A stretch of 31,791 nt of DNA, taken from UHGV virus genome UHGV-1970909. One strand, written 5' to 3'. The DNA is from a virus. Position numbers and translations under genes: made by a program. Under the pieces are notes generated by a model. It made no database searches, was not told the origin of the DNA, and worked only from the letters and a program-made list of their open reading frames with translations. Shown one piece after another: positions 514 through 31,600 of the stretch; the stretch's first letter is position 1; each line of letters starts with the position of its first letter.

Positions 514-1677
514 TTAATCCTCATCTTCTTCATACTCAACATCTGTAATTTTGACTTCCAACTCTAAGCCCGTCGTGAAGCCACTCCCGTTAAGGCTATG
601 CACCACACGGCTGACTATCCATGCTTGCTCGTCTATAACGCGCTTAAAGCCCTTCACCGCAACCGGTGTTTCAGGAAATAAATCAGCGCGGCCAGTGGCG
701 AGCGTAATCGAAAATTCCGCCACCCCTCGCTGTATCCTGTCCCACTTCGCCTGAGCTGCGCGCATGGCCTGCACCTTTGTCGCGTAGATGGTCGTGAGTT
801 CCAGAACATTGTCGGACTCACCGGCCATATACTCACCTTCCCGCGCTTCCTGCTCCTTTTTCTTTTTAGCCTTTGCCGATGTTTTGGCGGCCTTCGGGTG
901 CTGCAACGCACGCAGGTGCTGCTCTTTGGGTTTGCGTTTGAGCTTCACCTTTTGCTTTTGCGGTTTTGGGTCTCTGGTGTGCAGCCATTTAGCCGTGACG
1001 CCGGTGTATGCCTCGCGGTCGGCAATGGAAAACTGATGTCGGTCGCCGTCACCGCGCTCGACCGTCATTTGTGGGACAGGCTTGCCACTGGCCGTCATCG
1101 CGCTACCGGCTTTCAGGAATAACAATTTCCCGGCTTTGACCGAAACCGTTGCCCCGTTACGATCCGCCAGCCGGGACAAAAACGCCGCGTCGGATTCCTG
1201 AGACTGGTCGATATGCGGTACAGCAACAGATTTCAGGGTGTCAGCCACGCTGGCCGTCAGTTTGTTACGCTGCGCGATAGCCTCAACAATCACCCCGAGC
1301 CTGGTGTCGTGCCATGACTGTTCCCGGCGCGAGTTCAGCGTCCCGCGAAAATCCGCGCTGCGTCCCCGAATGGTCAGCCTGTCAGGCGCGCCCCGGTGCT
1401 CGATTTCGTCGACCGTGAAACTCCCTTTGTTTATCAGCGCGGAGCCCTGCCAGCCCAGCCACAGTGTCAGCGACGCCCCGCGCGGTGGTAGCTCAACCAG
1501 CCCGTCAGTATCATCAAGCTCAATATCGAGTTGATCAGCCTCAAATCCGCGATTGTCGGTCATGGTCAGCCCGATAAGCCGGTCGCTGAAATTCTGTGTG
1601 ATATCTGCGCCATTGAGCGTGAGCATAAAGCCAGGGGCGATGCACGCACCGGCCTGAATATTCATTCCCGTTATCAT
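514..1677 (-). CDS. D: Tail protein gpD (late control gene D family), 387 aa
   Basis: Position between U and ogr and length match P2 gpD; 4-nt overlap with the upstream gene; basic lysine-rich linker as in gpD homologues. Confidence 0.9.
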   Translation of the reverse strand: MITGMNIQAGACIAPGFMLTLNGADITQNFSDRLIGLTMTDNRGFEADQLDIELDDTDGLVELPPRGASLTLWLGWQGSALINKGSFTVDEIEHRGAPDRLTIRGRSADFRGTLNSRREQSWHDTRLGVIVEAIAQRNKLTASVADTLKSVAVPHIDQSQESDAAFLSRLADRNGATVSVKAGKLLFLKAGSAMTASGKPVPQMTVERGDGDRHQFSIADREAYTGVTAKWLHTRDPKPQKQKVKLKRKPKEQHLRALQHPKAAKTSAKAKKKKEQEAREGEYMAGESDNVLELTTIYATKVQAMRAAQAKWDRIQRGVAEFSITLATGRADLFPETPVAVKGFKRVIDEQAWIVSRVVHSLNGSGFTTGLELEVKITDVEYEEDED

Positions 1678-2138
1678 CCTGTCAGCCCCCCGAGCCAGTT
1701 ACCGGCAGACGTGACCAGATTATCAGCCTGCGTTTTCAGGTCACCGTAGATAGCCGCGAGCGAATCATCCACCCGCTTAAGCGACAGGCTAAACTCGATT
1801 TTTTTAGCCGCGCCGTCGCTGAATAACTCGGTGTGGATGTGAGTCACTTTATCGATAACATACATCCCGTGGATCATGCCGGTTCCGTCAATCAGCGGCC
1901 ATGCGCGCCCCTCGTCGGCCATCAGTTCGATGGCCGTCAGTGACAGACGCCCGCCGGTGATTTCAGGGTAAAGCGTGCCCGACAGGGTGCGCGAGGTTTC
2001 CCCCTCCCCGAGATACTGATAAGCCGGTGGTTTTCCGATACGGTCATTTGACACCCAGCGGTAGTCCTTAGAATACTGCATTGACTGATGCGGCAGGGTG
2101 CGCCGTTCAAACACAAAAAATCCCAGCACCATAAGCAT
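1674..2138 (-). CDS. U: Tail protein gpU, 154 aa
   Basis: Synteny (T-U-D) and size as P2 gpU; translationally coupled to D (ATGA overlap). Confidence 0.88.
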   Translation of the reverse strand: MLMVLGFFVFERRTLPHQSMQYSKDYRWVSNDRIGKPPAYQYLGEGETSRTLSGTLYPEITGGRLSLTAIELMADEGRAWPLIDGTGMIHGMYVIDKVTHIHTELFSDGAAKKIEFSLSLKRVDDSLAAIYGDLKTQADNLVTSAGNWLGGLTG

Positions 2139-2151
2139 TTTTATCCCTCCC

Positions 2152-4593
2152 TCAGTCGAGTCTCATACTGGATCGCTGGCGCGCACGTTTCTCGCGGTCA
2201 AGTTTGTCAACGGCGTCACGGAGCTGGCGGTCAAGATCACTGCCCGGCGCGACCCCACCCTGCAGATTGATGTTGTATTCGCTTTTGCTCTGGTCGATAT
2301 AAGACCGGCCTGCGGGTGCTGTAACCAGCTGATACGCCTGATAGCCGCCATAGCCTGCGGTCGCAGGGATATACCCGCCATTCGTGGACGCCTTATCCGC
2401 TTTCGCGGCCGTCTGGTCGAGGTCGCTGGATTCTTTTTTGATAATGCCGAGTTTTTCCAGCAGCCAGCCGACCTTGCCGCTCAGGCTGTTAAACATATTG
2501 AGCGGCAGCATCAGCGCATCAGCCAGCGCCTGACCAAAAGTAACGCCGACATTTTTGCAACTGTTGAGCGTGTCCTGCGTGGCTTTCACCGGCGCAAGCA
2601 GGTCTTTAAACCACTGGCAGACGACACCCAGCTTTTCAGCGATGGCGTCAAACACCGGCGCGAGCGGAGTAAACATGTCCCCCACCGGTGCAAAGGCGGC
2701 TTTCAGTCCCTCCACCACGCCTGAGAAGAATGCACCGAGCGGCTTCCAGTATTTACGGATCAGCAACGCACCGGCCACGACTGCACCGGCTACCGCCAGC
2801 ACCGGCAGGCTGATTGCGCCAATGGCCGTGACAATCGCGCCGCCGACCGTACTGAAAACCACACCGAGTACGCCAGCCGCCGCAATGATGGCATTAATCC
2901 CCATCACCACCGGCCATGCGACAAGGCCAATCCCGCCCATCACACCGATCAGCGCCAGCGCACCCCCGACCACCACGCCGAGAGTGGTCGCCAGCCCCTG
3001 ATTTTTCTGGATCCAGCCGTCGAGCCTGAGCACATATTGCGTGGCTGTCTGCGTCAGCTTACGCAGGGAGCCCTCCTGCTGATCAAACAGGTCAGTCCCG
3101 ACCGCCTCATAGGCTGACTGAAACTCTTTAAAGTCGCCGCCGAGGTTATCCTGCATCACCTTAACCAGTTCCTCAGTCTTACCGTCCGAGGCTTTAAACG
3201 CGGCGGTGAGCTGGTCGAGCTTGCCGCTTGATGCGGCGGCCATCAGAACGGCGGCCGCCGAGCTGGCTTCTTCACCGAAAATGGTTTTCATGTATTCGGC
3301 TTTCTGACCCGTTCCGAGATTGTTTTTCTCAAAACTGCGCTGCATTTCCTTCAGGATGGAAAATATCGGGCGCGTGTTGCCTTTGCTGTCGCTCGTTTTA
3401 ATGCCGAGCTCTTTGATGGCGTCATAGGCTTTACCGGTCGGCGCCTGCAGGCGACTCAGAACGGCACGGCTCCCTGTACCCGCCATCGAGCCGGTGATTT
3501 TGGAATCGTGCAGCGCCCCCACCATTGCGGCGGTTTCTTCGATACTCACCCCGGCATTTTTCGCCACCGGCGCGGCATAGGTCAGCGCATCGCTCATCCC
3601 GTCAAAATCAGCGGCGGTTTTGTTCATCGTCATCGAGAGAACATCGCCAATATGCGCGACTTTATCGTTAGAGAGCTGGAACGCGGATTTCATGCCGGTC
3701 AGCAGCGCGGCGTTTTCTTCCATCGTGCGCTTGTTCGACAGTGCCATGTTCAGCGTGACCGGCGTCGCCGCCTGAATGGCCGCCGCATCGCCGCCGCTTT
3801 TGGCAATGATAATCTGCGCACCCGCCGCATCATCGGCAGAGGCAGCGGTATTGTCACCAAGCTGGCGCGCCTGTTTACGCAGCGCCTGCATTTCGGGCGA
3901 CTGTTTGTCGACACCGAGCACGGCCTGCAGCTCAGAGTTTTTCTGTGCAAATTCATAACCCGGCGTCATCAGCTTAACCCCGGCGAGGGTTCCTGTTGTC
4001 GCAATACCGACACTGGCCGCGCCAGCGGCCGCCATGCTACCGGCAAGCGATTTACCGGCCTGATACCGCTCTTTCACCCGGCTTAACTTCGCCTGTTGTG
4101 CGCTGACTTTCGCCAGTGCCTCACGCTGACGATTGAGCTGCGCGGTGGTCTCACTGATGCGCGATTTAAGTCCCCGCTCATCATTTGCCAGATTACGGGT
4201 ATTAATTCCCGCCGCACCGAGCTCGCGTTGCTGGCGTTTAACAGACTCCGTGAGGCTGTTGTATTTCGTCTGCAGCCCTTCGGCGGCACGCTTCGCGGAT
4301 TCAAGAACCTGCGCCTGCGCGCGCGTCGGGCGCTCGGTGTTTTTAAACTGCGTGGCTAGTGCTTCGGCTTCCTGTTTCGCTTTCTCAAGCGAGTGACCGG
4401 TTACGGCAAGCTGTGCGCTGGCTTTGCGGAATCCGTCAATACGGGACGCCTGCGCGTTAAGTTCGCGCAGGCTTTTCTGTGAATTGCGGATATCACCGGA
4501 CAGGGATTTGCTGGCGTTCTGAATCGCTTTAAGCGGGCGGCTCGCCCGGTCGACGGCGTTCAGCAGCACCTCGATTCTGACGTTATTGCTCAT
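2152..4593 (-). CDS. T: Tail tape-measure protein gpT, 813 aa
   Basis: Long Ala/Gln-rich coiled-coil N-terminus, glycine-rich hydrophobic central segment, position downstream of E/E'. Confidence 0.92.
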   Translation of the reverse strand: MSNNVRIEVLLNAVDRASRPLKAIQNASKSLSGDIRNSQKSLRELNAQASRIDGFRKASAQLAVTGHSLEKAKQEAEALATQFKNTERPTRAQAQVLESAKRAAEGLQTKYNSLTESVKRQQRELGAAGINTRNLANDERGLKSRISETTAQLNRQREALAKVSAQQAKLSRVKERYQAGKSLAGSMAAAGAASVGIATTGTLAGVKLMTPGYEFAQKNSELQAVLGVDKQSPEMQALRKQARQLGDNTAASADDAAGAQIIIAKSGGDAAAIQAATPVTLNMALSNKRTMEENAALLTGMKSAFQLSNDKVAHIGDVLSMTMNKTAADFDGMSDALTYAAPVAKNAGVSIEETAAMVGALHDSKITGSMAGTGSRAVLSRLQAPTGKAYDAIKELGIKTSDSKGNTRPIFSILKEMQRSFEKNNLGTGQKAEYMKTIFGEEASSAAAVLMAAASSGKLDQLTAAFKASDGKTEELVKVMQDNLGGDFKEFQSAYEAVGTDLFDQQEGSLRKLTQTATQYVLRLDGWIQKNQGLATTLGVVVGGALALIGVMGGIGLVAWPVVMGINAIIAAAGVLGVVFSTVGGAIVTAIGAISLPVLAVAGAVVAGALLIRKYWKPLGAFFSGVVEGLKAAFAPVGDMFTPLAPVFDAIAEKLGVVCQWFKDLLAPVKATQDTLNSCKNVGVTFGQALADALMLPLNMFNSLSGKVGWLLEKLGIIKKESSDLDQTAAKADKASTNGGYIPATAGYGGYQAYQLVTAPAGRSYIDQSKSEYNINLQGGVAPGSDLDRQLRDAVDKLDREKRARQRSSMRLD

Positions 4594-5052
4594 GATGGCT
4601 TCCGCTTCGTTGCAGCGCCTTATCGCGCCATGTCAGGAGCTCGGTCACGCTCAGGGAATTCAGCTCTGATGGCGGCCAGTGGAAGATCACCGCGATATCC
4701 GCCATCAGGTCATCGACCGACAGTTTTTCCGGGAAGGTCAGCGACCCGAAGCCGGTGACAAAAAACCAACCACCTTACCAGCCAGCGAAATCAGGTCTGA
4801 CGCATCCAGACGCGCGAGTTCGTGCTCGGTCAGTGCCGGATATGTCATACGCGGCAGCACCTTAATCAGCGCATCAACGTCGGAATTTGCCAGCGAGGCC
4901 AGCGACACCCCGCGCAGGGTTCCCGCATTCGGTTTGGTTAGCGTGACCTGCTCAATTTTCTGCTCACCGCGCATCAGCGGGGTGTCAAAAATAACGACAT
5001 TCGGATTGACGTTTTCAGTGTCAGCAACAGCAGTTTCATTGATATTTTTCAT
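4583..5052 (-). CDS. E+E': Frameshift fusion product gpE+E' (about 156 aa), made by -1 slippage at 4759-4765
   Basis: Hand translation of the -1 frame after the slippery site gives about 59 further codons without a stop, ending at TAA 4583-4585 and overlapping the T start, as in the conserved P2 E/E' arrangement. Confidence 0.6.
4738..5052 (-). CDS. E: Tail assembly chaperone gpE (zero-frame product)
   Basis: 104-aa ORF between FII and T; its 3' end contains the slippery heptamer T_TTT_TTG. Confidence 0.85.
   Translation of the reverse strand: MKNINETAVADTENVNPNVVIFDTPLMRGEQKIEQVTLTKPNAGTLRGVSLASLANSDVDALIKVLPRMTYPALTEHELARLDASDLISLAGKVVGFLSPASGR
4759..4765 (-). promoter_or_regulatory. Programmed -1 ribosomal frameshift slippery site T_TTT_TTG (E to E')
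   Basis: Minus-strand TTTTTTG in the correct phase (GGT TTT TTG in the E frame), 6 codons before the E stop; the -1 frame stays open to a TAA at 4583-4585. Confidence 0.65.
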
Positions 5053-5106
5053 GCGAATTTCTCATCAGGGTAAGTGACCGGCCAGCCCCGCTGACCGGTT
5101 GAGGGA

Positions 5107-5625
5107 TTACAGGCCAATTGCCTTGCGGTGCTCTGCCATACGGTCGACACCATCGACTTTCAGCACCATGTTGATCACGTCAATTTCAATGACTTCTTTG
5201 CCGTCGATCGTGAGCTGGTAATAGGCGCACTCGGTCGCCATTTTGGTCGTGCCGCTTTCGCCCTGCTTGTTCTCACCGCCGTCGTATTCTTTATGACGGC
5301 CACGCATCACCACTTCGACGGCAGAAATCGCGCCGGTGTCGTCACGCTGATAAGAGCCGGTAAAACGCAGCGGCACGCTGTCAGCACCCGGCGAGGCGTA
5401 CTGCGCCCACAATTCAATGTCAGGCAGACCGCCGAGCGTCCACTCAAGCGACAGCGCATCGTCATCGAGGCCGAGGTCAACCGACACCGCCCCCGGCATT
5501 CCGCCGCCGCGATATTTCTCCAGCTTGCGGGTCAGTTTTGGCAGGGTGACGGATTCAACAACGCCCATATAGCTCAGGCCATCGTTGAACATATTCAGGT
5601 ATTTCAGTTTGCGGGGTAACGCCAT
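5107..5625 (-). CDS. FII: Tail tube protein gpFII, 172 aa
   Basis: Synteny directly downstream of the sheath gene; size matches P2 FII. Confidence 0.92.
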   Translation of the reverse strand: MALPRKLKYLNMFNDGLSYMGVVESVTLPKLTRKLEKYRGGGMPGAVSVDLGLDDDALSLEWTLGGLPDIELWAQYASPGADSVPLRFTGSYQRDDTGAISAVEVVMRGRHKEYDGGENKQGESGTTKMATECAYYQLTIDGKEVIEIDVINMVLKVDGVDRMAEHRKAIGL

Positions 5626-5637
5626 GCTCAGAGCTCC

Positions 5638-6831
5638 TTAGCTGTTGACCGAATCCGACAGGTTCGCCAGATAGGTATCGGTGATGCGCTGGCGCAGGGT
5701 CAGGTTTTCCAGCGGCGGGACGGGGGTGTAGTCGTAATCGATATACAGTTTCCCCACTTTCAGGGTCGCGGTGTCGTTCGACTCCGGGTCGTACCAGCAC
5801 AAGCCGTCAACGATATAACCACTGGTTTTCAGCTCGCGGAATTTGGCATTGATACCGGAAACGATGTCACGAATGAGGGTCGGGGTAATGGGTTTATCCA
5901 TCGCCCACGCGTGCGCCTCCGCCATCGTGTCGGCCAGCACCTGCGCGGTGCGGGTGTAGTTCTCAAACAGAAAAAGCGGATCATCCGAGCAGGTACGGTT
6001 TCCCCAGAATTTGAAACCATCATTGCGGATAAGCGTGGTGACACCGGCCTGATTCAGCAGGTTGGCGTCGGTCGCCGGTTCCTGCAAATCCCACGACACC
6101 GAGGCGCTGACGCCGGTCACACCGTTAACACCGACGTTTGACAGGGTTTTATGCCAGCCGACCGTCTGGTCGATTTTGGCACGCAGGCCGAGTGCGCGCG
6201 CCGTCGCCCAGGCTGTTGCTGTCGCGTTCGCCGTGGTGTCCCATGCCAGAAAATCAGGGAAGATGACCATCAGCTCGCGCTGGCTGAAATTCTCGCGGTA
6301 GTTGATGGCATCGGAAATGGTTTTACAGCCCCACGCGCTGATATAGCCAAAGGCGCGCAGGCTCTGACAGGTGGACGCGAGCGCGGTCGCCACTTCCTGC
6401 GAATCCAGCCCCGGCACGCCGAGAATCCGTGGCTTAACGCCGGTGACGGTTTTCGCCGTCAGCAGGGCTTTCAGCCCGGTATATTTGCCGTTTTCGTCGG
6501 TGGTGCCGATGATATTGGAAATGGTTTGTTTGTGCGCCGCCTCGGGGTTCTCCGGGTCTTCAATACCTTCGGCCACACGCACGGCCACGATGACCGGCTT
6601 GCACTGGTCAGCGATAGCCTGCAGGGACGTCGACAGCGTGCCCTGTTTACCGGCTTTACCGATAGCGCTCTGCACGTTCGTAATGAGCACCGGCTCATTG
6701 AGGGGAAATGTTTTTTCGTCAGCATCGCTGGCCGTACAGACCATGCCGATGATGGCCGTTGAAACGGTGGAAATGGTGCGGACGCCATCGTTAATCTCGA
6801 TGACCTGCACGCCGTGATGATAGTCACTCAT
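5638..6831 (-). CDS. FI: Contractile tail sheath protein gpFI, 397 aa
   Basis: Start placed at MSDYHHGVQVIEIN (residue 67 of the six-frame ORF), which resembles the P2 FI N-terminus as I recall it; the upstream 66 codons of the ORF are a spurious 5' extension. Confidence 0.92.
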   Translation of the reverse strand: MSDYHHGVQVIEINDGVRTISTVSTAIIGMVCTASDADEKTFPLNEPVLITNVQSAIGKAGKQGTLSTSLQAIADQCKPVIVAVRVAEGIEDPENPEAAHKQTISNIIGTTDENGKYTGLKALLTAKTVTGVKPRILGVPGLDSQEVATALASTCQSLRAFGYISAWGCKTISDAINYRENFSQRELMVIFPDFLAWDTTANATATAWATARALGLRAKIDQTVGWHKTLSNVGVNGVTGVSASVSWDLQEPATDANLLNQAGVTTLIRNDGFKFWGNRTCSDDPLFLFENYTRTAQVLADTMAEAHAWAMDKPITPTLIRDIVSGINAKFRELKTSGYIVDGLCWYDPESNDTATLKVGKLYIDYDYTPVPPLENLTLRQRITDTYLANLSDSVNS

Positions 6832-7057
6832 CCGTTTAACTCCGTGGTTAAGGGGTGAGTGATATTTTCTGTTGTGTGGCAGGTGCGGGCTATTTGTCAG
6901 GGTTGGATAAGGTCTGACACAACAGCGGTGAATATTCGGGCTGTCACGATATTTGTCAGTTAATTTGGGTAATTTTATGTAATCATATGTTGTGAAAGCG
7001 CATCGGGATGATGCAAAAACATAATGCAATACAGATGATTACTGTTCAGGGCTGGTC

Positions 7058-7642
7058 ATGTTTAAGTACGTTTTAGCACTAAATTTTATTTTTTTTGGCA
7101 ATACACACAACCTGATGAATTACTGGAAAGCGGAGGTTATCAGAAGAGAGAAATTTTCACTGCACCGTCTTTTAAGAGAGAAAAAACACCGGGGCAGAAA
7201 TTTTATTTTTTGGTGGCGCCTGGCAAATGAAATGTATTTGAATGGTGGGAAAATACACAAAAAAGCAGCAAAGCAAATCAATGCTCACCTGATGGAAAAA
7301 TTTGGCTGCGAAATATCACTTGGTGCAAATATTGGCAAAGGAATAAAAATTCCACATCATCATGGAATTGTCATTCATCATTTGGTAGACATAGGTGAAA
7401 ACTTAGTCATACGCCAAAACACAACAATCGGTCAAAAAGACAGCGATGGTAAATCCTTCAAATTGCACATTGGGGATAATGTTGATATTGGTGCAAACAC
7501 ATGTATTGTTGGCCTGAATCATACAATTGGAAATAATGTGAAAATTGGAGCGATGTCATTCGTTAACTGTGACATCCCGGATGATTGTACGCTTGTTACG
7601 ACTAAAACGACCCGATTCATTAGCCATAACAACATATCATAA
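7058..7642 (+). CDS. Cargo gene: left-handed beta-helix (hexapeptide-repeat) acetyl/acyltransferase, CysE/WcaB-like, 194 aa
   Basis: Translation contains tandem hexapeptide repeats (IGANIGKGIKIP..., IGENLVIRQNTTIGQKD, IGDNVDIGANTCIVGLNHTIGNNVKIGAMSFV); AT-rich; opposite strand to flanking tail genes; sits at the P2 Z/fun position between G and FI. Exact start uncertain. Confidence 0.7.
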   Translation: MFKYVLALNFIFFGNTHNLMNYWKAEVIRREKFSLHRLLREKKHRGRNFIFWWRLANEMYLNGGKIHKKAAKQINAHLMEKFGCEISLGANIGKGIKIPHHHGIVIHHLVDIGENLVIRQNTTIGQKDSDGKSFKLHIGDNVDIGANTCIVGLNHTIGNNVKIGAMSFVNCDIPDDCTLVTTKTTRFISHNNIS

Positions 7643-12833: not shown

Positions 12834-13820
12834 TTATGGATTTGACTTACCTGAAGTCTCTTTTTTTATTTCAAATTTCCCACCCTTGAACATGATATTC
12901 GAATCTTTGATTCCATACAAAAGCATTTCATAAGGATGGTTAATTTTTTGTTCTTTTGTAGCGATACTGGAATTCATCAATTGCAACAAAGCCACATGAT
13001 GTTCACTCGCCCCTAACTCTACCATTTTGGTAGCCATGTTGCTTATCTGTTCTCGTTTTAAAAAATCTTCCCGGAGAGAAAGTAACGTTAAACTTCGTGC
13101 GTTACAAAACTTTATCATGTAAACAACAAACGCACCTAACCCAATATAGGAAAACGATAATGCTAAATAAATAGACGGTGTGGTTATTATGTTTTGCCCA
13201 AATATAAGAAAACCCAGCAGGCCAAAAAAATAAAAAACATTCACCAAAATAAACATGTTACTCATCAGAGCCTTTGTACTTCGAGTTGCATCATATTCTT
13301 TCTCCAGATGCTCCAAAAATGATGATATTTTTATTAAATTTAACTTTTCAATTGTTTCCTTCTCTAAAATCTTGAATTGCTCACTCTCTCTAATTAATTT
13401 TTTGGTAGTGTCCTCCACTGTATCATGCAATGATTCAGTGATCGCCTCTTCAATTTTATTTTCAGAAAACACGCTTGTTAAAGCGTAATTGGCTAATTCC
13501 TTTTGTCTTTTCTCGATTAAACTTTCGACATTTTCTCTGTACGCATCAAAATATTTTTGACCACTCTCGTTTAGCAATATTTTACGAATATGAAATTTTA
13601 TTTTCTCATCTGCCATTGGTTGGCTTTCAGTGTTACCATTCTTCTTTGTGTTATTATCTTTAGTTTCCGCATTATACCTGTCCTTGCCTGAATCAAGTAA
13701 GTTCCGTGAAATGAATTTCACCACAGGACCACGCAGAATAGCTATAGCTATTGCCATTGCAAGAATGAATGGTGAAGCATCAATAAATGATCGCGCAAAT
13801 ACGAAAGAGATTTCACTCAT
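12834..13820 (-). CDS. Cargo gene: predicted integral membrane protein with coiled-coil region (about 329 aa), function unknown
   Basis: AT-rich ORF in the gap between V and S (P2 orf30 position). Hydrophobic helices at FILAMAIAIAIL and FILVNVFYFFGLLGFLIFG...IYLALSFSYIGLGAFVVYMI, with a long charged K/E-rich middle. Start chosen at MSEISF (ATG with GGGAA 6 nt upstream); the six-frame ORF begins at an upstream TTG. Confidence 0.7.
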   Translation of the reverse strand: MSEISFVFARSFIDASPFILAMAIAIAILRGPVVKFISRNLLDSGKDRYNAETKDNNTKKNGNTESQPMADEKIKFHIRKILLNESGQKYFDAYRENVESLIEKRQKELANYALTSVFSENKIEEAITESLHDTVEDTTKKLIRESEQFKILEKETIEKLNLIKISSFLEHLEKEYDATRSTKALMSNMFILVNVFYFFGLLGFLIFGQNIITTPSIYLALSFSYIGLGAFVVYMIKFCNARSLTLLSLREDFLKREQISNMATKMVELGASEHHVALLQLMNSSIATKEQKINHPYEMLLYGIKDSNIMFKGGKFEIKKETSGKSNP

Positions 13821-14133
13821 AAACATTTCCCTATCTAAAATCAAAGAGTTTACTTTTACCCATATTTTCTACTGACTGAACCAGTTTGACAAGAGAGATA
13901 AGCATCTTTAATATCGATTTTGCCCATTAGGCATGAAAATAAAAAATACCACATGAAATCAATATCATACAATGACCACGCGTTGACCTCATCCATAACC
14001 AATAAATTATCTGATCATGAAATTCTTGATATGCATTGCAGAATTCGATTTCCACCATTTCGCTTTTAGATGTTCATCAAATATCAACACCCCACTATCA
14101 GTAGTTGACAGATCAACTCGTAGCTAATTCAAA

Positions 14134-23194: not shown

Positions 23195-24460
23195 ATGAAT
23201 ATAATGAAATGTTTTGAATGCGAAACCTGTGGTACACACATTGATTGTAGAATAGGACTTTCAAATCGAGATGTGCAGCCTTTTCAGTTTGCTTGTCCTG
23301 AATGTGAAGAAAAAATTACTTTTAATATTTTGGGTGAAGACTTCAACCTAGAAGGGGCCATTGATCTTGTTGATTTTGAGGCACCATTTACGGGGGGTAA
23401 TCATTTCATAGATTTACACTTGGATTTTCCCGCCTCATTTGAAAAATATGAAATGGGATTTACTCCATTCATGCGAGCTGCTCAGGAAATCGGTCATGAG
23501 AACTATCAGCATCTTAATGAGAGACTGAATGCTCTTAACTACTTATACCCTAAAAAGAGAGAGTTAAGACGCTTAATAACTCAGTATAAACGAGGCGAAG
23601 TAAATACATTTCGAAAAACCTGCAATAAGCTTCTTGGTATACAATTAAAATCTAATAAGAAACAAGATATATTAGCCGCTTTGTATACAGCAACATCCAT
23701 AATGTCTTCACCTTTTACCATACATCAACATAATGAAGAAATAAGCACTAAAATGCCTGATTTATTACGTTCGCTTGATTACACTCACAAAATAAAAACA
23801 AGGGCGTTTTTTGAACAGTTAATTAAAACTGGTTTCTTACGAAATGTACACCATGAATGCCTATCCTTGTACCCAAAAATCGTAGAATTAGACCTACCAT
23901 TAAGGCCAGCCCTTTATTTTGACTACAAGCAATTAAATGAAGGGGATAAAATTTCAGGGCGGGTTTCAACTGCTGACTTTGATAGTTGCAGTAATTTATA
24001 TAAGGATCTATCTGAAGTCTTTTCGCGATTATTAACATTAGTTGCGGGGCTTAATAATCTGCTAAAACGTGGAGATTATGATCTGTTTGATGATTCAGTT
24101 CGTTTAAATAAAAAACAAGAATTAATTAAAGAACTTGCATCTTTAAATAATTTTACCAATATGGATTTAGGTAAAAAAATAGAGTGTATTGATGATTCAT
24201 TTTATTACATCGACAAGAGTGCAATTAATCACAAGTTACGAAATGCAATTGCCCATTATAAATATGAGTACGAAGAATCTACACAAATGATTTTCTATTA
24301 CCCAAATAGAGAAGGAATGAGCAGAGAGAACATGTATGAAATTTCATTTCTTGAATTTCTTAGATATTCTTTGATGCTTTTTCGTGAGGTTCATTCATTG
24401 AATCACATTGTTAAATCATTGTTTTTTTACACTGTGCTTGTTTTAAAGAAGGACATTTAA
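23195..24460 (+). CDS. Cargo gene: N-terminal zinc-ribbon + C-terminal HEPN-like (R-x4-H) domain protein, 421 aa; candidate abortive-infection RNase
   Basis: AT-rich ORF with a strong AAGGAG Shine-Dalgarno; N-terminus CFECETCGTH...ACPECEEK (C-x2-C...C-x2-C); C-terminal motif HKLRNAIAHYKYEY (R349-N-x3-H354, nt 24239-24256); sits between cos and A, where P2 carries tin/old. Confidence 0.75.
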   Translation: MNIMKCFECETCGTHIDCRIGLSNRDVQPFQFACPECEEKITFNILGEDFNLEGAIDLVDFEAPFTGGNHFIDLHLDFPASFEKYEMGFTPFMRAAQEIGHENYQHLNERLNALNYLYPKKRELRRLITQYKRGEVNTFRKTCNKLLGIQLKSNKKQDILAALYTATSIMSSPFTIHQHNEEISTKMPDLLRSLDYTHKIKTRAFFEQLIKTGFLRNVHHECLSLYPKIVELDLPLRPALYFDYKQLNEGDKISGRVSTADFDSCSNLYKDLSEVFSRLLTLVAGLNNLLKRGDYDLFDDSVRLNKKQELIKELASLNNFTNMDLGKKIECIDDSFYYIDKSAINHKLRNAIAHYKYEYEESTQMIFYYPNREGMSRENMYEISFLEFLRYSLMLFREVHSLNHIVKSLFFYTVLVLKKDI

Positions 24461-28029: not shown

Positions 28030-28539
28030 TCATACCAAACCGAATGTTGCGCCAATGCCGGTCATGGTGTCGACGACACTCGACATTGCCGGGTTAGCCT
28101 GGAGGCGAGCCTGTAACGCCAGCGCCGACAATGACAGCATGCGAATACCGGCGTTAACGCTTTCAACCATGTTGTGTTTACGAGCAGAGGACAGGCGTTC
28201 ATCAGATGCAGCACCGTTCGCCAGTTCGCCGAGTTCGCTCATTGCGCGCATGACATAGGACTGCAATTTATCTTTAGCCAACTCATTAACCGGCACACAA
28301 GGTAGACAATGGATCTGCGCCAGAAAGCCATCAACGAGGGTTGAGTCTTCGGTCAGATCAGTCAGCAGCCATAACTCAGGCGGTGTGAACTGGTGAGGCT
28401 GTTCCGGGTTAAGTTTGTTACGTAACGTCTGAACATTCATACCCGCACGCTCGGCCAGCTTCGCCATGTTGTGACGCTGCGCGAAAGCCCGGCACGCTTC
28501 GTCATAGTGGGGATGTTTGGAAATTTGAAAATCAAACAT
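28030..28539 (-). CDS. cII: CII-like transcriptional regulator (186 CII family), 169 aa
   Basis: Same length as 186 CII as I recall it; helix-turn-helix segment MAKLAERAGMNVQTLRNKL; position downstream of apl. Confidence 0.78.
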   Translation of the reverse strand: MFDFQISKHPHYDEACRAFAQRHNMAKLAERAGMNVQTLRNKLNPEQPHQFTPPELWLLTDLTEDSTLVDGFLAQIHCLPCVPVNELAKDKLQSYVMRAMSELGELANGAASDERLSSARKHNMVESVNAGIRMLSLSALALQARLQANPAMSSVVDTMTGIGATFGLV

Positions 28540-28574
28540 GTATTTTTCCTCGCTATCTTAAATAATCGAGTTGC

Positions 28575-28799
28575 TCAGGCTGCCACATAGCGGCAATTGA
28601 GACCCTGAGCCAAGAGTCGAGCACGGAAGGCAACCATATTGATACGCGCTGCACCACCGTCTTTTTTACGAGGCATCAGGAGGAGGTCTCCATCAGCAAC
28701 CATCTGTTTTACAGTACGAATGCAGTAGCCGTAGCATTCGGCAAATTCGTCATAAGTCATGAGATCAGCGCCGGGCGGGATTGCAATTTGTGGAGTCAT
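28575..28799 (-). CDS. apl: Apl/Cox-like excisionase and switch repressor, 74 aa
   Basis: Small HTH protein (MTYDEFAECYGYCIRTVKQMV) as first gene of the lytic operon, divergent from cI, as in 186 (Apl) and P2 (Cox). Confidence 0.72.
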   Translation of the reverse strand: MTPQIAIPPGADLMTYDEFAECYGYCIRTVKQMVADGDLLLMPRKKDGGAARINMVAFRARLLAQGLNCRYVAA

Positions 28800-28864
28800 A
28801 AGTAATCATCTCCGGTTATTAGTTGGTTTGGTGCATTGGCGTGCATTTTTAAATTCAAGTGAGA

Positions 28865-28892
28865 ATCTTATCTCGAAAATGCGAGATGTCAA
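28865..28892 (-). promoter_or_regulatory. Candidate lytic promoter pR (minus-strand -35 TTGACA, 16-bp spacer, -10 TAAGAT) with palindromic operator in the spacer
   Basis: Minus strand TTGACA (28887-28892) and TAAGAT (28865-28870); perfect inverted repeat ATCTCG-N6-CGAGAT (28870-28887) lies between them; about 60 bp upstream of apl. Confidence 0.5.
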
Positions 28893-28924
28893 TTTGGATT
28901 TTCGCGATAACTCGGATTTTTAAG

Positions 28925-29503
28925 ATGAAATTGGATGAGTTAGAGGGTGGAAAAGCAGTGCTGCAGCGCATCCTTGATGCGTATGGCTTCACCATGCAAA
29001 AACAACTCGGTGACCTGCATGAGCTGTCATCGGGAACAATTAGCACGTGGGTTAGGCGTAATTTTTTCCCCGGGGATGTTGTTGTTGCATGCGCTTTGGA
29101 TACTGGGGTGTCTTTACGTTGGTTGGCAACAGGGAAGGGGAACAAGTTTGATGCTGACCATACTAATGGCGAAATGAAAACATTAGACCGATTGGATATT
29201 GTTGCAGGTAAGCTGCAGGAAAACGGTCATTGGATTGTTGATGCTAATCTTTTTTCTACTGACGCGACGCACCCTAATTACATAGTAAAAGGCCAGCAGT
29301 CCTGGATAGTTGACTTCGATATGACTGATATAGCAAATGGCCGATGGATGCTCAGTATCGACGGGGATCATGATGTCTATGACGTTGCAAGGATCCCGGG
29401 GAACAGAATAAAAGTCAGCAACGCTGATGCCGATTTTCAATGCTCAGTTTCTGAGGTTAAGTGTATTGGCATGGTGCTGGTAAGCCTGACGAAATCTAGC
29501 TAA
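28925..29503 (+). CDS. cI: CI immunity repressor (186-CI-like), 192 aa
   Basis: Start at MKLDELEGGKAVLQRILDAYGF gives 192 aa, the 186 CI length as I recall it; N-terminal HTH; immediately upstream of int on the same strand. Confidence 0.85.
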   Translation: MKLDELEGGKAVLQRILDAYGFTMQKQLGDLHELSSGTISTWVRRNFFPGDVVVACALDTGVSLRWLATGKGNKFDADHTNGEMKTLDRLDIVAGKLQENGHWIVDANLFSTDATHPNYIVKGQQSWIVDFDMTDIANGRWMLSIDGDHDVYDVARIPGNRIKVSNADADFQCSVSEVKCIGMVLVSLTKSS

Positions 29504-30595: not shown

Positions 30596-31600
30596 ATGCC
30601 TACCAATCGTACTAGATACTCATTTTTAAGCCCAATGAGTATCAGTGATAGCGTCAGTGTTTTTTTTGCAGCCCTTGATTTTTTTTCAATCCCTGGACAG
30701 GACAAGGTTAGGAAAACTATAGCTATACCTCAAACCAATAATGGTATTCATCCTCTTCCTGCTGGTTCTTTCATGGATTATATTAAGGCGTTAAATATTT
30801 TGGCTGAGCCTGATCGCCACATGCAAAATATACGAAAGCTACTTAACAAAATGGAAGGTGTAGGTTTGTTAGTACCTATGGGGAACTCTGGGAGTGTATT
30901 TTTCCCAACCAATTATTACTTCTTGAAAGAATTAACTGAGAGAGAAAAGAAAGGTCGATTCTGGTTGTCTGAATGCTTGGGGCCTGAGTATGTGTACAAG
31001 TTTTTTGGTAATTTAATCATACATATCGTAGGCATGACATCAGATGGAGATGAACATGGAGGCACTGGAGTTATTATTAATGATAAACTGGTTTTGACAT
31101 GCAAGCATGTAATCGATGAAATGGTTATCAATGATACTCAATTTATTAATGGTAGTCAGATCAAAGTAGTCAACACGCATACACATAATGAAATTGATGT
31201 TGGAATTATTGAGTTCGAACCAAATAGCTTTATTGTAAATGGGAATGTGTGTTTTGATTCTCCGCACTTAAATGATGATATATATGTTTTAGGCTATCCA
31301 CCAATTCCATATTCAAAAGAAGTTGCGCCAATAATGCAGAAAGGTGAGATTACTAACCCTGAAATTACTACATTGGATAATCATACGGTTTTTCTTTTCT
31401 CTGCTATAGCTAGACCTGGTAATAGTGGAGGTCCAATTATTGCTAGGAATGGCAGGATCCTTGGGATAGTCACGAAAGAGCTATCACTTCAAGAAAGCAA
31501 TAACTTCCCGTTCTTTGCGGGGATTCCAACAAATGAAATAGTAACAGCCCTCTCTGATATGGGGTTTGGAGGGATACTTCCTGTCGAAAATTATCAGTAG
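30596..31600 (+). CDS. Cargo gene: two-domain protein with C-terminal trypsin/chymotrypsin-like serine protease (H171, D201, S277 in GNSGGP) and an unrecognised N-terminal domain, 334 aa
   Basis: AT-rich ORF with a perfect AAGGAG Shine-Dalgarno; motifs TCKHVI, EIDVGIIEF and ARPGNSGGPII in H-D-S order; no signal peptide evident; sits between int and the right integrase arm repeats. Confidence 0.75.
   Translation: MPTNRTRYSFLSPMSISDSVSVFFAALDFFSIPGQDKVRKTIAIPQTNNGIHPLPAGSFMDYIKALNILAEPDRHMQNIRKLLNKMEGVGLLVPMGNSGSVFFPTNYYFLKELTEREKKGRFWLSECLGPEYVYKFFGNLIIHIVGMTSDGDEHGGTGVIINDKLVLTCKHVIDEMVINDTQFINGSQIKVVNTHTHNEIDVGIIEFEPNSFIVNGNVCFDSPHLNDDIYVLGYPPIPYSKEVAPIMQKGEITNPEITTLDNHTVFLFSAIARPGNSGGPIIARNGRILGIVTKELSLQESNNFPFFAGIPTNEIVTALSDMGFGGILPVENYQ

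What the first reader, a model, noticed from the sequence alone, without database searches (positions are those of the whole stretch)
4583..5052. Conserved -1 programmed frameshift in the tail chaperone gene (E to E')
A T_TTT_TTG heptamer in the correct phase sits 6 codons before the E stop, and the -1 frame continues open for about 59 codons to a TAA overlapping the T start. This is the tail-assembly-chaperone frameshift found across long-tailed phages; automated callers will miss the fused product.
Basis: partly seen in the sequence, partly recalled or inferred. Interest (0 to 1): 0.35.

Follow-up and report, generated by a model that had tools for sequence, protein, structure and literature searches.

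The report
P2-type tail chaperone frameshift (E/E+E')
This is the well-known programmed -1 ribosomal frameshift that lets a P2-like prophage make two tail-assembly chaperones (E and the longer E+E') from one start codon; it is real and strongly conserved, but it was characterised in phage P2 long ago, so it is ordinary.

Summary
On the minus strand, gene E (5052..4738, 104 aa) carries an in-phase T_TTT_TTG heptamer (4765..4759) six codons before its TGA. The -1 frame stays open for 59 more codons to TAA 4585..4583, ending 11 nt inside the tape-measure gene T (ATG 4593). The window is a P2/186-like prophage with the gene order FI-FII-E-E'-T-U-D.

- **Family match:** E matches Pfam Phage_TAC_7. 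The -1 extension matches Phage_P2_GpE (E=9e-19).
- **Identity to P2:** E is 73% and E' 69% identical to P2 gpE and E'. The P2 GenBank record annotates a "-1 frameshift; essential tail protein" at the same heptamer.
- **Conservation of the shift:** In 86 of 87 related loci E' lies in the -1 frame. 83 loci have TTTTTTG.
- **Frozen codons:** The three synonymous positions inside the heptamer never vary.
- **No start of its own:** The -1 frame shows coding-type variation upstream of its only ATG. That ATG is not conserved in the wider family.
- **Stimulators:** No conserved downstream hairpin exists. A conserved Shine-Dalgarno-like UAAGGUGGU lies 3 nt upstream, at an unusual spacing, and is unexplained.

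Automated annotation (PGAP) does split the product. Verdict: already known, low interest.

The parts
4738..5052 (-). Gene E: zero-frame tail assembly chaperone, 104 aa, ending ...GKVVGFLSPASGR*
   Evidence: ORF list and translation. Pfam PF10109 Phage_TAC_7 scores 42 bits against a cutoff of 25. 73% identical to P2 gpE. The exact sequence is public as 'phage tail assembly protein' in E. coli and Citrobacter.
4759..4765 (-). Slippery heptamer T_TTT_TTG (U_UUU_UUG in the mRNA); P-site codon UUU (Phe97), A-site codon UUG (Leu98)
   Evidence: Read directly from the sequence. Present in phase in 83 of 87 related loci, with TTTTTTA in 2. Synonymous positions are frozen: GGT 78/78, TTT 79/79, TTG 77/79. 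It is the same heptamer as the annotated P2 frameshift site.
4583..4758 (-). E' : -1-frame extension (VTGFGSLTFPEKLSVDDLMADIAVIFHWPPSELNSLSVTELLTWRDKALQRSGSHHEQ*), 58 codons after the heptamer plus the TAA stop
   Evidence: Translation. Pfam PF06528 Phage_P2_GpE, E=8.9e-19. phrog_1756 covers fusion residues 96-155. 69% identical to P2 E'. The frame is open in 78/78 unique relatives while the other two frames are closed, and third-codon-position variation follows the -1 frame.
4583..5052 (-). Composite E+E' coding region; predicted 156-aa fusion, with junction ...KVVGF-L-VTGF... under tandem slippage or ...GF-F-VTGF... under P-site-only slippage
   Evidence: Inferred from the P2 join at the G of TTTTTTG. 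tblastn of the fusion hits 405 phage records; nearly all of the 60 sampled rows match as two pieces, and tblastn on the fetched loci places E' one frame back from E.
4775..4777 (-). TAA that closes the -1 frame upstream, so the shift must occur within a 34-nt overlap
   Evidence: Read directly from the sequence. The overlap was computed.
4769..4777 (-). Shine-Dalgarno-like UAAGGUGGU, with its 3' edge 3 nt upstream of the heptamer; role unknown
   Evidence: Predicted duplex with the 16S rRNA 3' end is -8.4 kcal/mol, and it is the only site at or below -5 in the 60 nt upstream. The Lys codon here is AAG in 69/69 sequences, against AAA 171: AAG 87 elsewhere in E. The next Val codon is GTG in 73/79.
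4703..4705 (-). Internal ATG of E' (Met117 of the fusion), used by automated callers as the start of a 40-aa 'GpE family' ORF (4583..4705); probably not a real start
   Evidence: PGAP-style call in E. coli S42. No SD-like sequence precedes it. It is ATA in Yersinia aldovae and Ala, Val, Ile or Tyr in other genera.
2152..4593 (-). Gene T, tail tape measure protein (813 aa); its first 11 nt overlap the end of E'
   Evidence: ORF list. Pfam PF10145, E=6.9e-44.
5107..5625 (-). Gene FII, tail tube protein, immediately upstream of E
   Evidence: Pfam PF04985, E=3e-59.

Best explanation
The window is a P2/186-like (Peduoviridae) prophage, and the finding is its E/E+E' tail-assembly-chaperone recoding site.

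**What happens at the site.** Most ribosomes translate E in frame and stop at TGA 4738, giving the 104-aa chaperone E. A minority slip back one nucleotide on U_UUU_UUG (4765..4759) and read the -1 frame to TAA 4583. That gives a 156-aa protein made of E residues 1-98 plus the 58-residue E' domain.

**What the products do (by analogy with P2 and lambda G/GT).** The shared E part is thought to coat the tape measure protein T. The rare E' part is thought to recruit the tube protein so that the tube, and then the sheath, polymerise around T. The fixed slip frequency would set the E : E+E' ratio. Neither product is expected in the virion.

**Shown here:** the anatomy, the homology to P2, the conservation of the shift and of the heptamer at the nucleotide level, the coding constraint on the -1 frame, and its lack of an initiation codon of its own.

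**Inferred:** that slippage occurs in this phage, its frequency, the junction residue, and the protein functions.
For: 1. Gene order and families: sheath, tube, Phage_TAC_7, Phage_P2_GpE in the -1 frame, tape measure, GpU, GpD.
2. E is 73% and E' 69% identical to P2 gpE and E'. P2 record AF063097 and the L-413C and Musica records annotate a joined -1 frameshift CDS at the homologous TTTTTTG.
3. PMC3091744 states that the P2 -1 shift occurs at TTTTTTG and yields a 91-aa E and a 142-aa E+E'.
4. In 86 of 87 loci from many genera E' is one frame back from E. An in-phase heptamer lies in the overlap in all 86: TTTTTTG in 83, TTTTTTA in 2, G_GGA_AAG in a Mannheimia phage. A_AAT_TTT and T_TTT_TTT occur in two further genera.
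5. The synonymous sites inside the heptamer are invariant while neighbouring third positions vary freely.
6. The -1 frame is open in 78/78 unique relatives. Per-codon-position entropy between the E stop and the internal Met is 0.61/0.44/1.20, which is a coding pattern. 63 of 80 sequences have no ATG, GTG or TTG in that stretch.
7. The internal Met is not conserved family-wide.
Against: - There is no direct evidence of expression or slippage for this particular prophage.
- U_UU.U_UU.G is not among the high-efficiency -1 motifs measured in E. coli (PMC4066793; PMC5009743).
- No conserved downstream stem-loop exists. The window's own hairpin is paired in 64.6% of cells across relatives, against 64.2% in shuffles.
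- The conserved SD-like element sits 3-5 nt upstream, outside the 9-14 nt range known to stimulate -1 shifts.
- So what raises slippage to a useful level is not explained.
- The figure of about 10% efficiency for P2 rests on my memory of Christie et al. 2002, which the library did not hold.
Confidence: 0.9

Rival explanations
1. The fusion is made by transcriptional slippage, not ribosomal slippage. RNA polymerase would add one U in the U6 run, and the edited mRNA would then be read normally into E'.
For: The site is a homopolymer run (T6). An added U gives exactly the E+E' frame and a GFFV junction, so detecting a fusion protein alone cannot separate the two mechanisms. U_UUU_UUG is a mediocre ribosomal slip site in E. 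coli, and no conserved stimulatory structure is present.
Against: - To my knowledge, productive transcriptional slippage in bacteria needs runs of about 8-9 or more. Here the run is exactly 6 in all 85 TTTTTT-type loci.
- The seventh base is G in 83 of those 85 loci and A in 2. In the 79 enterobacterial sequences the codon always remains a Leu codon (TTG 77, TTA 2). The heptamer model predicts this for the A-site codon.
- Related genera use non-homopolymeric heptamers, G_GGA_AAG and A_AAT_TTT, at the same place. These fit tandem tRNA slippage but not polymerase stuttering.
Confidence: 0.04
2. E' is a separate small gene, as automated annotation has it. A 40-aa 'GpE family' protein would be initiated at ATG 4705, and no frameshift would be needed.
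For: PGAP and several phage records annotate exactly this ORF. The 40-aa sequence is recorded on 1000 or more contigs, the look-up's counting limit. The Pfam PF06528 model starts at that Met.
Against: - No Shine-Dalgarno-like sequence precedes the ATG.
- The 19 -1-frame codons upstream of it evolve as coding sequence and stay open in all relatives, although 63 of 80 have no start codon there.
- The Met is ATA in Y. aldovae and is replaced by Ala, Val, Ile or Tyr in Ralstonia, Klebsiella/Salmonella, Mannheimia and Vibrio phages, while the domain stays conserved.
- phrog_1756 aligns from fusion residue 96.
- The P2 record states that E+E' shares the amino terminus of gpE.
Confidence: 0.04
3. The signal is a relic. 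The prophage would be defective or silent, so the heptamer and -1 ORF are inherited sequence with no current function in this host.
For: The window is a prophage of unknown activity, and nothing here measures expression. One relative, a Symbiopectobacterium symbiont (L006), has an 11-nt deletion that destroys the two-product arrangement.
Against: All tail genes around the site are full-length with strong family matches. E, E' and T are intact, and the heptamer is unchanged. The identical E protein occurs on 38 contigs and the identical E' ORF on 1000 or more, which suggests recent spread and not decay.
Confidence: 0.02

Closest known systems
Bacteriophage P2 gpE / gpE+E' (F operon FI-FII-E-E'-T-U-D; Christie et al. 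2002, J Bacteriol 184:6522; GenBank AF063097)
   Same: Same gene order and the same two Pfam families. E is 73% and E' 69% identical. The heptamer TTTTTTG is identical and sits in the same phase, six codons before the E stop. E' ends the same 11 nt inside T.
   Different: E here is 104 aa against 91 aa, with a 13-residue longer N-terminus, and the fusion is 156 aa against 142 aa. The immunity region of this prophage is 186-type (CI/CII), not P2 C/Cox. Nothing differs at the recoding site itself.
Phage lambda gpG / gpGT and the conserved tail-assembly-chaperone frameshift of long-tailed phages (Levin 1993; Xu, Hendrix, Duda 2004, 2013, 2014)
   Same: Two overlapping ORFs lie between the major tail/tube gene and the tape measure gene. 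A -1 shift near the end of the first ORF gives a short abundant product and a long rare product from one start. The presumed roles are binding the tape measure and recruiting the tube subunit (PMC5009743).
   Different: To my knowledge there is no detectable sequence similarity; it was not tested here. The slip site is G_GGA_AAG in lambda and U_UUU_UUG here. This is a contractile tail, so a sheath is also assembled. The lambda ratio is about 30:1, and the ratio here is unknown.
E. coli dnaX -1 frameshift (A_AAA_AAG with an SD 10 nt upstream and a 3' stem-loop)
   Same: A bacterial -1 shift on an X_XXY_YYZ heptamer with an upstream SD-like sequence present.
   Different: No conserved 3' stem-loop is present. 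The SD-like element lies 3-5 nt, not 9-14 nt, from the site. The heptamer is less slippery in E. coli. The frameshift product here is longer, not shorter.
HIV-1 gag-pol U_UUU_UUA slip site
   Same: An almost identical heptamer with Phe and Leu codons. For HIV the junction is heterogeneous, 70-80% Leu and 20-30% Phe (PMC5009743). The same ambiguity (GFLV or GFFV) applies here.
   Different: The HIV site works on eukaryotic ribosomes with a downstream stimulatory structure, and its biology is unrelated.

Membership tests
P2-type gpE / gpE+E' tail assembly chaperone pair (Peduoviridae) | The upstream ORF belongs to Pfam PF10109 (Phage_TAC_7) | tested here: met
   42 bits against a cutoff of 25. 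73% identical to P2 gpE.
P2-type gpE / gpE+E' tail assembly chaperone pair (Peduoviridae) | The -1 frame extension belongs to Pfam PF06528 (Phage_P2_GpE) | tested here: met
   67.1 bits against a cutoff of 23, E=8.9e-19. 69% identical to P2 E'.
P2-type gpE / gpE+E' tail assembly chaperone pair (Peduoviridae) | Position between the tube gene FII and the tape measure gene T in an FI-FII-E-E'-T-U-D cluster | tested here: met
   Pfam assignments of all seven ORFs. The layout matches AF063097.
P2-type gpE / gpE+E' tail assembly chaperone pair (Peduoviridae) | An in-phase TTTTTTG heptamer inside the short 0/-1 overlap near the end of E | tested here: met
   Heptamer at 4765..4759. The overlap is 34 nt with a single heptamer. 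The position is identical to the annotated P2 site.
P2-type gpE / gpE+E' tail assembly chaperone pair (Peduoviridae) | E' has no translation start of its own and is under coding constraint from the slip site onward | tested here: met
   Entropy by codon position is 0.61/0.44/1.20 upstream of the internal Met. 63 of 80 sequences have no start codon there. The Met is not conserved.
P2-type gpE / gpE+E' tail assembly chaperone pair (Peduoviridae) | A fusion polypeptide is actually produced, and E' is essential for tail assembly | not testable with these tools
   This needs proteomics or genetics. It is annotated as essential in the P2 record.
Lambda G/GT-type conserved tail chaperone frameshift (functional class) | Two overlapping ORFs lie directly upstream of the tape measure gene and are joined by a -1 shift on a slippery sequence conserved among relatives | tested here: met
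Lambda G/GT-type conserved tail chaperone frameshift (functional class) | The short product binds the tape measure and the extension binds the tube/major tail protein | not testable with these tools
   A single-sequence AlphaFold model was unusable, with mean pLDDT 37.8. No solved homologue was found by sequence.
dnaX-type stimulated -1 frameshift | A conserved 3' stem-loop or pseudoknot 5-9 nt after the heptamer | tested here: not met
   The window's hairpin starts 11 nt downstream. Across 80 relatives it is paired in 64.6% of cells against 64.2% in shuffles, and several pairs are mostly broken. PMC3091744 reports no hairpin in P2 or in KS5, KS14 and KL3.
dnaX-type stimulated -1 frameshift | An SD-like sequence 9-14 nt 5' of the shift site | tested here: not met
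   The only strong anti-SD match (UAAGGUGGU, -8.4 kcal/mol) ends 3 nt before the heptamer. The spacing rule comes from PMC5009743.

The most novel reading that the evidence does not exclude
The conserved Shine-Dalgarno-like UAAGGUGGU (4777..4769) may be a functional part of the recoding signal.

- Its synonymous sites are frozen: AAG in 69/69 sequences and GTG in 73/79.
- It ends only 3 nt before the heptamer, a spacing at which SD pairing is known to favour +1 shifts. By my memory of Larsen et al. 1994, that spacing inhibits -1 shifts.
- It might tune the E : E+E' ratio, or it might bias the shift toward a P-site-only slip with a Phe junction.
- If so, P2-type sites would be a distinct mechanistic variant of bacterial -1 frameshifting: a weak heptamer, no 3' structure and a close 5' rRNA-pairing element.
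Probability: 0.15. Interest if true: 0.35.

Novelty: already known. Interest (0 to 1): 0.08.

Why it matters
- **Annotation.** The site matters mainly for correct annotation. Standard pipelines report E plus a spurious 40-aa 'GpE family' gene and omit the 156-aa E+E' protein, which P2 genetics says is essential for tail assembly.
- **Biology.** Nothing new is added. The recoding event, its site and its conservation across P2-like phages were published in 2002-2010.
- **Remaining question.** A heptamer that performs poorly in E. coli reporter assays, with no 3' structure, must still reach a useful slip frequency. The conserved upstream SD-like element may play a part in that.

Tried and rejected
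1. **Downstream stimulatory hairpin.** The 99 nt after the heptamer fold to -39.5 kcal/mol (z=-2.1), with a 14-bp interrupted hairpin starting 11 nt downstream. Pair counts on 80 relatives equal the shuffled control. Rejected as a conserved element.
2. **RNAalifold consensus.** It pairs the 10 nt just upstream of the heptamer with the SVDDL-coding stretch 43 nt downstream. There is almost no compensatory change, and the 5' arm would be inside the ribosome during the slip. Rejected.
3. **Structure prediction.** The fused protein without an alignment gave mean pLDDT 37.8, so no fold search was run.
4. **Solved structures and NCBIfam.** A sequence search of solved structures found nothing below E=0.6. 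NCBIfam gave no hit.
5. **Christie et al. 2002.** The paper could not be read by DOI or by PMC135442. Its content is cited through PMC3091744, PMC5009743 and the GenBank record.
7. **Another heptamer.** C_CCG_GGT in gene I (10043), with a long -1 frame running into gene H, was judged a chance hit.
Full report
**Observation**

The feature lies on the minus strand. Gene E runs from ATG 5052 to TGA 4740..4738 and encodes 104 aa ending ...AGKVVGFLSPASGR. The codons GGT TTT TTG place a T_TTT_TTG heptamer at 4765..4759 in X_XXY_YYZ phase, and exactly six sense codons follow before the stop.

The -1 frame is closed by TAA 4777..4775, four codons upstream of the slip. It then stays open to TAA 4585..4583. 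The tape-measure ORF T (2152..4593, 813 aa) starts at ATG 4593, so E' ends 11 nt inside T. The stretch where both frames are open is only 34 nt and holds one in-phase heptamer.

**Chance**

In-phase X_XXY_YYZ heptamers occur at about 0.0047 per codon in the window's long ORFs, so about 0.05 are expected in the 11-codon overlap. Of 72 in-phase heptamers in all mechanical ORFs of 90 aa or more, five have a -1 frame extending at least 30 codons past the zero-frame stop. The other four sit in spurious or unrelated ORFs. Conservation, described below, settles the question.

**Context**

Pfam identifies the neighbours as follows:
- sheath FI (5638..7029)
- tube FII (5107..5625)
- E as Phage_TAC_7
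- tape measure T
- GpU (1674..2138)
- GpD (514..1677)

The -1 extension matches Phage_P2_GpE at E=8.9e-19. The rest of the window is a P2/186-like prophage. It carries tail fibre genes, gpA, a 186-type CI and CII, and an integrase.

**Identity with the known P2 feature**

- E is 73% and E' 69% identical to P2 gpE and E'.
- P2 record AF063097 annotates gpE and gpE+E' ('shares amino terminus with gpE; -1 frameshift; essential tail protein'). It also marks a 'site of -1 translational frameshift' at the base right after the same TTTTTTG, which is in the same codon phase.
- The L-413C and Burkholderia phage Musica records carry the same joined CDS.
- Lynch et al. 2010 (PMC3091744) state that in P2 the -1 shift occurs at TTTTTTG and yields a 91-aa E and a 142-aa E+E'. 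They also state that the site is conserved in Burkholderia P2-like phages and that no downstream hairpin exists there or in P2.
- The primary paper, Christie et al. 2002, is cited in PMC5009743 but could not be read. Its figure of about 10% efficiency is from my memory of the abstract.

**Conservation**

- tblastn of the fused protein hits 405 phage records from Escherichia, Yersinia, Salmonella, Klebsiella, Burkholderia, Ralstonia, Pseudomonas, Mannheimia and Vibrio. Nearly all of the 60 sampled records match as two pieces.
- I analysed 79 bacterial genome loci, seven annotated regions from phage records and an E. coli prophage, and the window itself. In 86 of these 87, E' is one frame back from E.
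- 83 have an in-phase TTTTTTG, two have TTTTTTA, and a Mannheimia phage has G_GGA_AAG.
- Eight further phage loci from other Peduoviridae genera mostly keep TTTTTTG. A_AAT_TTT occurs in Xuanwuvirus and T_TTT_TTT in a Vibrio phage.
- The heptamer columns are 96-98% identical while adjacent third-codon positions are 44-78% identical.
- Among 79 distinct enterobacterial sequences the synonymous choices inside the heptamer are frozen: Gly GGT 78/78, Phe TTT 79/79, Leu TTG 77/79. By contrast the Gly four codons upstream uses four different codons.

**The -1 frame is coding and has no start of its own**

- Downstream of the slip the -1 frame is open in 78/78 unique relatives. The other two frames are interrupted in 78 and 73 of them.
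- Mean entropy by -1-frame codon position is 0.49/0.27/0.87 over the whole extension. It is 0.61/0.44/1.20 in the stretch between the E stop and the only in-frame ATG (4705). In that stretch 63 of 80 sequences have no ATG, GTG or TTG at all.
- That ATG has no SD-like sequence upstream. It is ATA in Yersinia aldovae. It is replaced by Ala, Val, Ile or Tyr in Ralstonia, Klebsiella/Salmonella, Mannheimia and Vibrio phages, whose E' domain is otherwise conserved.
- phrog_1756 aligns from fusion residue 96, which is upstream of the Met.

These results argue against the 40-aa 'GpE family' gene model that PGAP and several phage records use. The exact E protein and the exact 40-aa ORF are in public protein sets, but neither possible 156-aa fusion is.

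**Mechanism**

The best explanation is tandem -1 slippage. tRNA-Phe on UUU in the P site and tRNA-Leu on UUG in the A site both re-pair one base back onto U_UU and U_UU. The next codon read is then GUC. This gives ...KVVGF-L-VTGFGS..., which is the P2 join position.

By analogy with the HIV U_UUU_UUA site, a fraction may instead carry Phe (GFFV). That would follow from a P-site-only slip followed by decoding of UUU in the new frame (PMC5009743).

By analogy with P2 and lambda G/GT, E would coat the tape measure and the rare E' domain would recruit tube subunits. This functional step is inferred.

**Stimulators**

- The window's own hairpin after the site is not conserved.
- U_UU.U_UU.G is not among the efficient E. 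coli motifs (PMC4066793; PMC5009743).
- A strong SD-like UAAGGUGGU (4777..4769) ends 3 nt before the heptamer, with a predicted duplex with the anti-SD of -8.4 kcal/mol.
- Its synonymous sites are unusually constrained. The Lys codon is AAG in 69/69 sequences against AAA 171: AAG 87 at other Lys positions of E, and the Val codon is GTG in 73/79.
- AGGUG-type motifs recur at 4-8 nt in the Felsduovirus, Senquatrovirus, Aresaunavirus and Citexvirus loci but not in all genera.
- The known stimulatory spacing for -1 shifts is 9-14 nt, and 3 nt favours +1. Its role is therefore unexplained, and conserved Val coding may account for part of the signal.

**Rivals**

- Transcriptional slippage on the T6 run would give the same frame. 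It is disfavoured because the run is short and invariant in length, the seventh base is conserved, and sister genera use non-homopolymeric heptamers.
- Independent initiation of E' is disfavoured by the coding and start-codon evidence above.
- A defunct relic cannot be excluded without expression data, but all the tail genes are intact.

**Verdict**

The feature is a member of the already characterised P2 E/E+E' recoding system. Novelty: already known. Interest is low. Its only practical value is as an annotation correction, and the unexplained upstream SD-like element is a small open question.

Noticed in passing
window 5077-5099 (minus strand), between the FII stop (5107) and the E start (5052): A GC-rich 10-bp hairpin (ACCGGUCAGC-GGG-GCUGGCCGGU) sits directly after the tube gene. 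Relatives keep a hairpin at the same place with different stem sequences, several followed by T-rich tails, and a Mannheimia phage record annotates it as a rho-independent terminator. It may be a partial terminator or an mRNA-stabilising element that lowers E-T-U-D expression relative to sheath and tube.
   Followed up: partly
window 4769-4777 (minus strand): An SD-like UAAGGUGGU lies 3 nt upstream of the slippery heptamer, with frozen synonymous sites (AAG 69/69, GTG 73/79). The spacing does not fit the known 9-14 nt rule for -1 stimulation.
   Followed up: partly
window 23195-24460 (+), GC about 0.34: A low-GC 421-aa ORF lies between the portal gene and gpA, which is the position of the P2 old/tin cargo locus. 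It matches only phrog_13366 (unknown function) and has no Pfam or PADLOC hit. The related E. coli S42 prophage carries a DUF262 gene pair there instead. It is a candidate uncharacterised cargo or defence gene.
   Followed up: partly
window 12834-13844 (-), GC about 0.34: A low-GC 336-aa ORF lies between the virion-morphogenesis gene and baseplate gene V. It has no family match in PHROGs or PADLOC and only a sub-threshold Pfam DUF2852 hit. The S42 relative has a different hypothetical gene at the same place.
   Followed up: partly
window 7058-7642 (+), GC about 0.39: A low-GC 194-aa ORF on the opposite strand lies between sheath gene FI and the tail-fibre assembly gene, which is the position of P2 fun(Z). 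It has weak hexapeptide-repeat (acetyltransferase-like) similarity and matches phrog_2154.
   Followed up: partly
window 30596-31600 (+): A 334-aa trypsin-like peptidase gene lies just beyond the integrase. It has partial PADLOC matches to the protease domains of RT-Protease_XI, LmuA and HamA. It may be prophage-edge cargo or host DNA.
   Followed up: no
L006:1730-1745 (Candidatus Symbiopectobacterium sp.): An 11-nt deletion immediately upstream of TTTTTTG removes the SD-like AAGGTG and puts E and E' in one frame. Only the fused protein could then be made, which probably reflects a decaying prophage in a symbiont genome.
   Followed up: partly
L086, L095, L097 (Mannheimia, Xuanwuvirus and Vibrio phages): Other Peduoviridae genera use different in-phase heptamers at the homologous place: G_GGA_AAG (the lambda type), A_AAT_TTT and T_TTT_TTT. 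The frameshift is therefore conserved while the slip sequence has been replaced several times.
   Followed up: partly
window 28030-29503: The immunity region is 186-type (CI repressor with Phage_CI_repr and CI_C domains, and CII/CP76), whereas the tail genes are closest to P2. The prophage is therefore a P2/186 mosaic.
   Followed up: no
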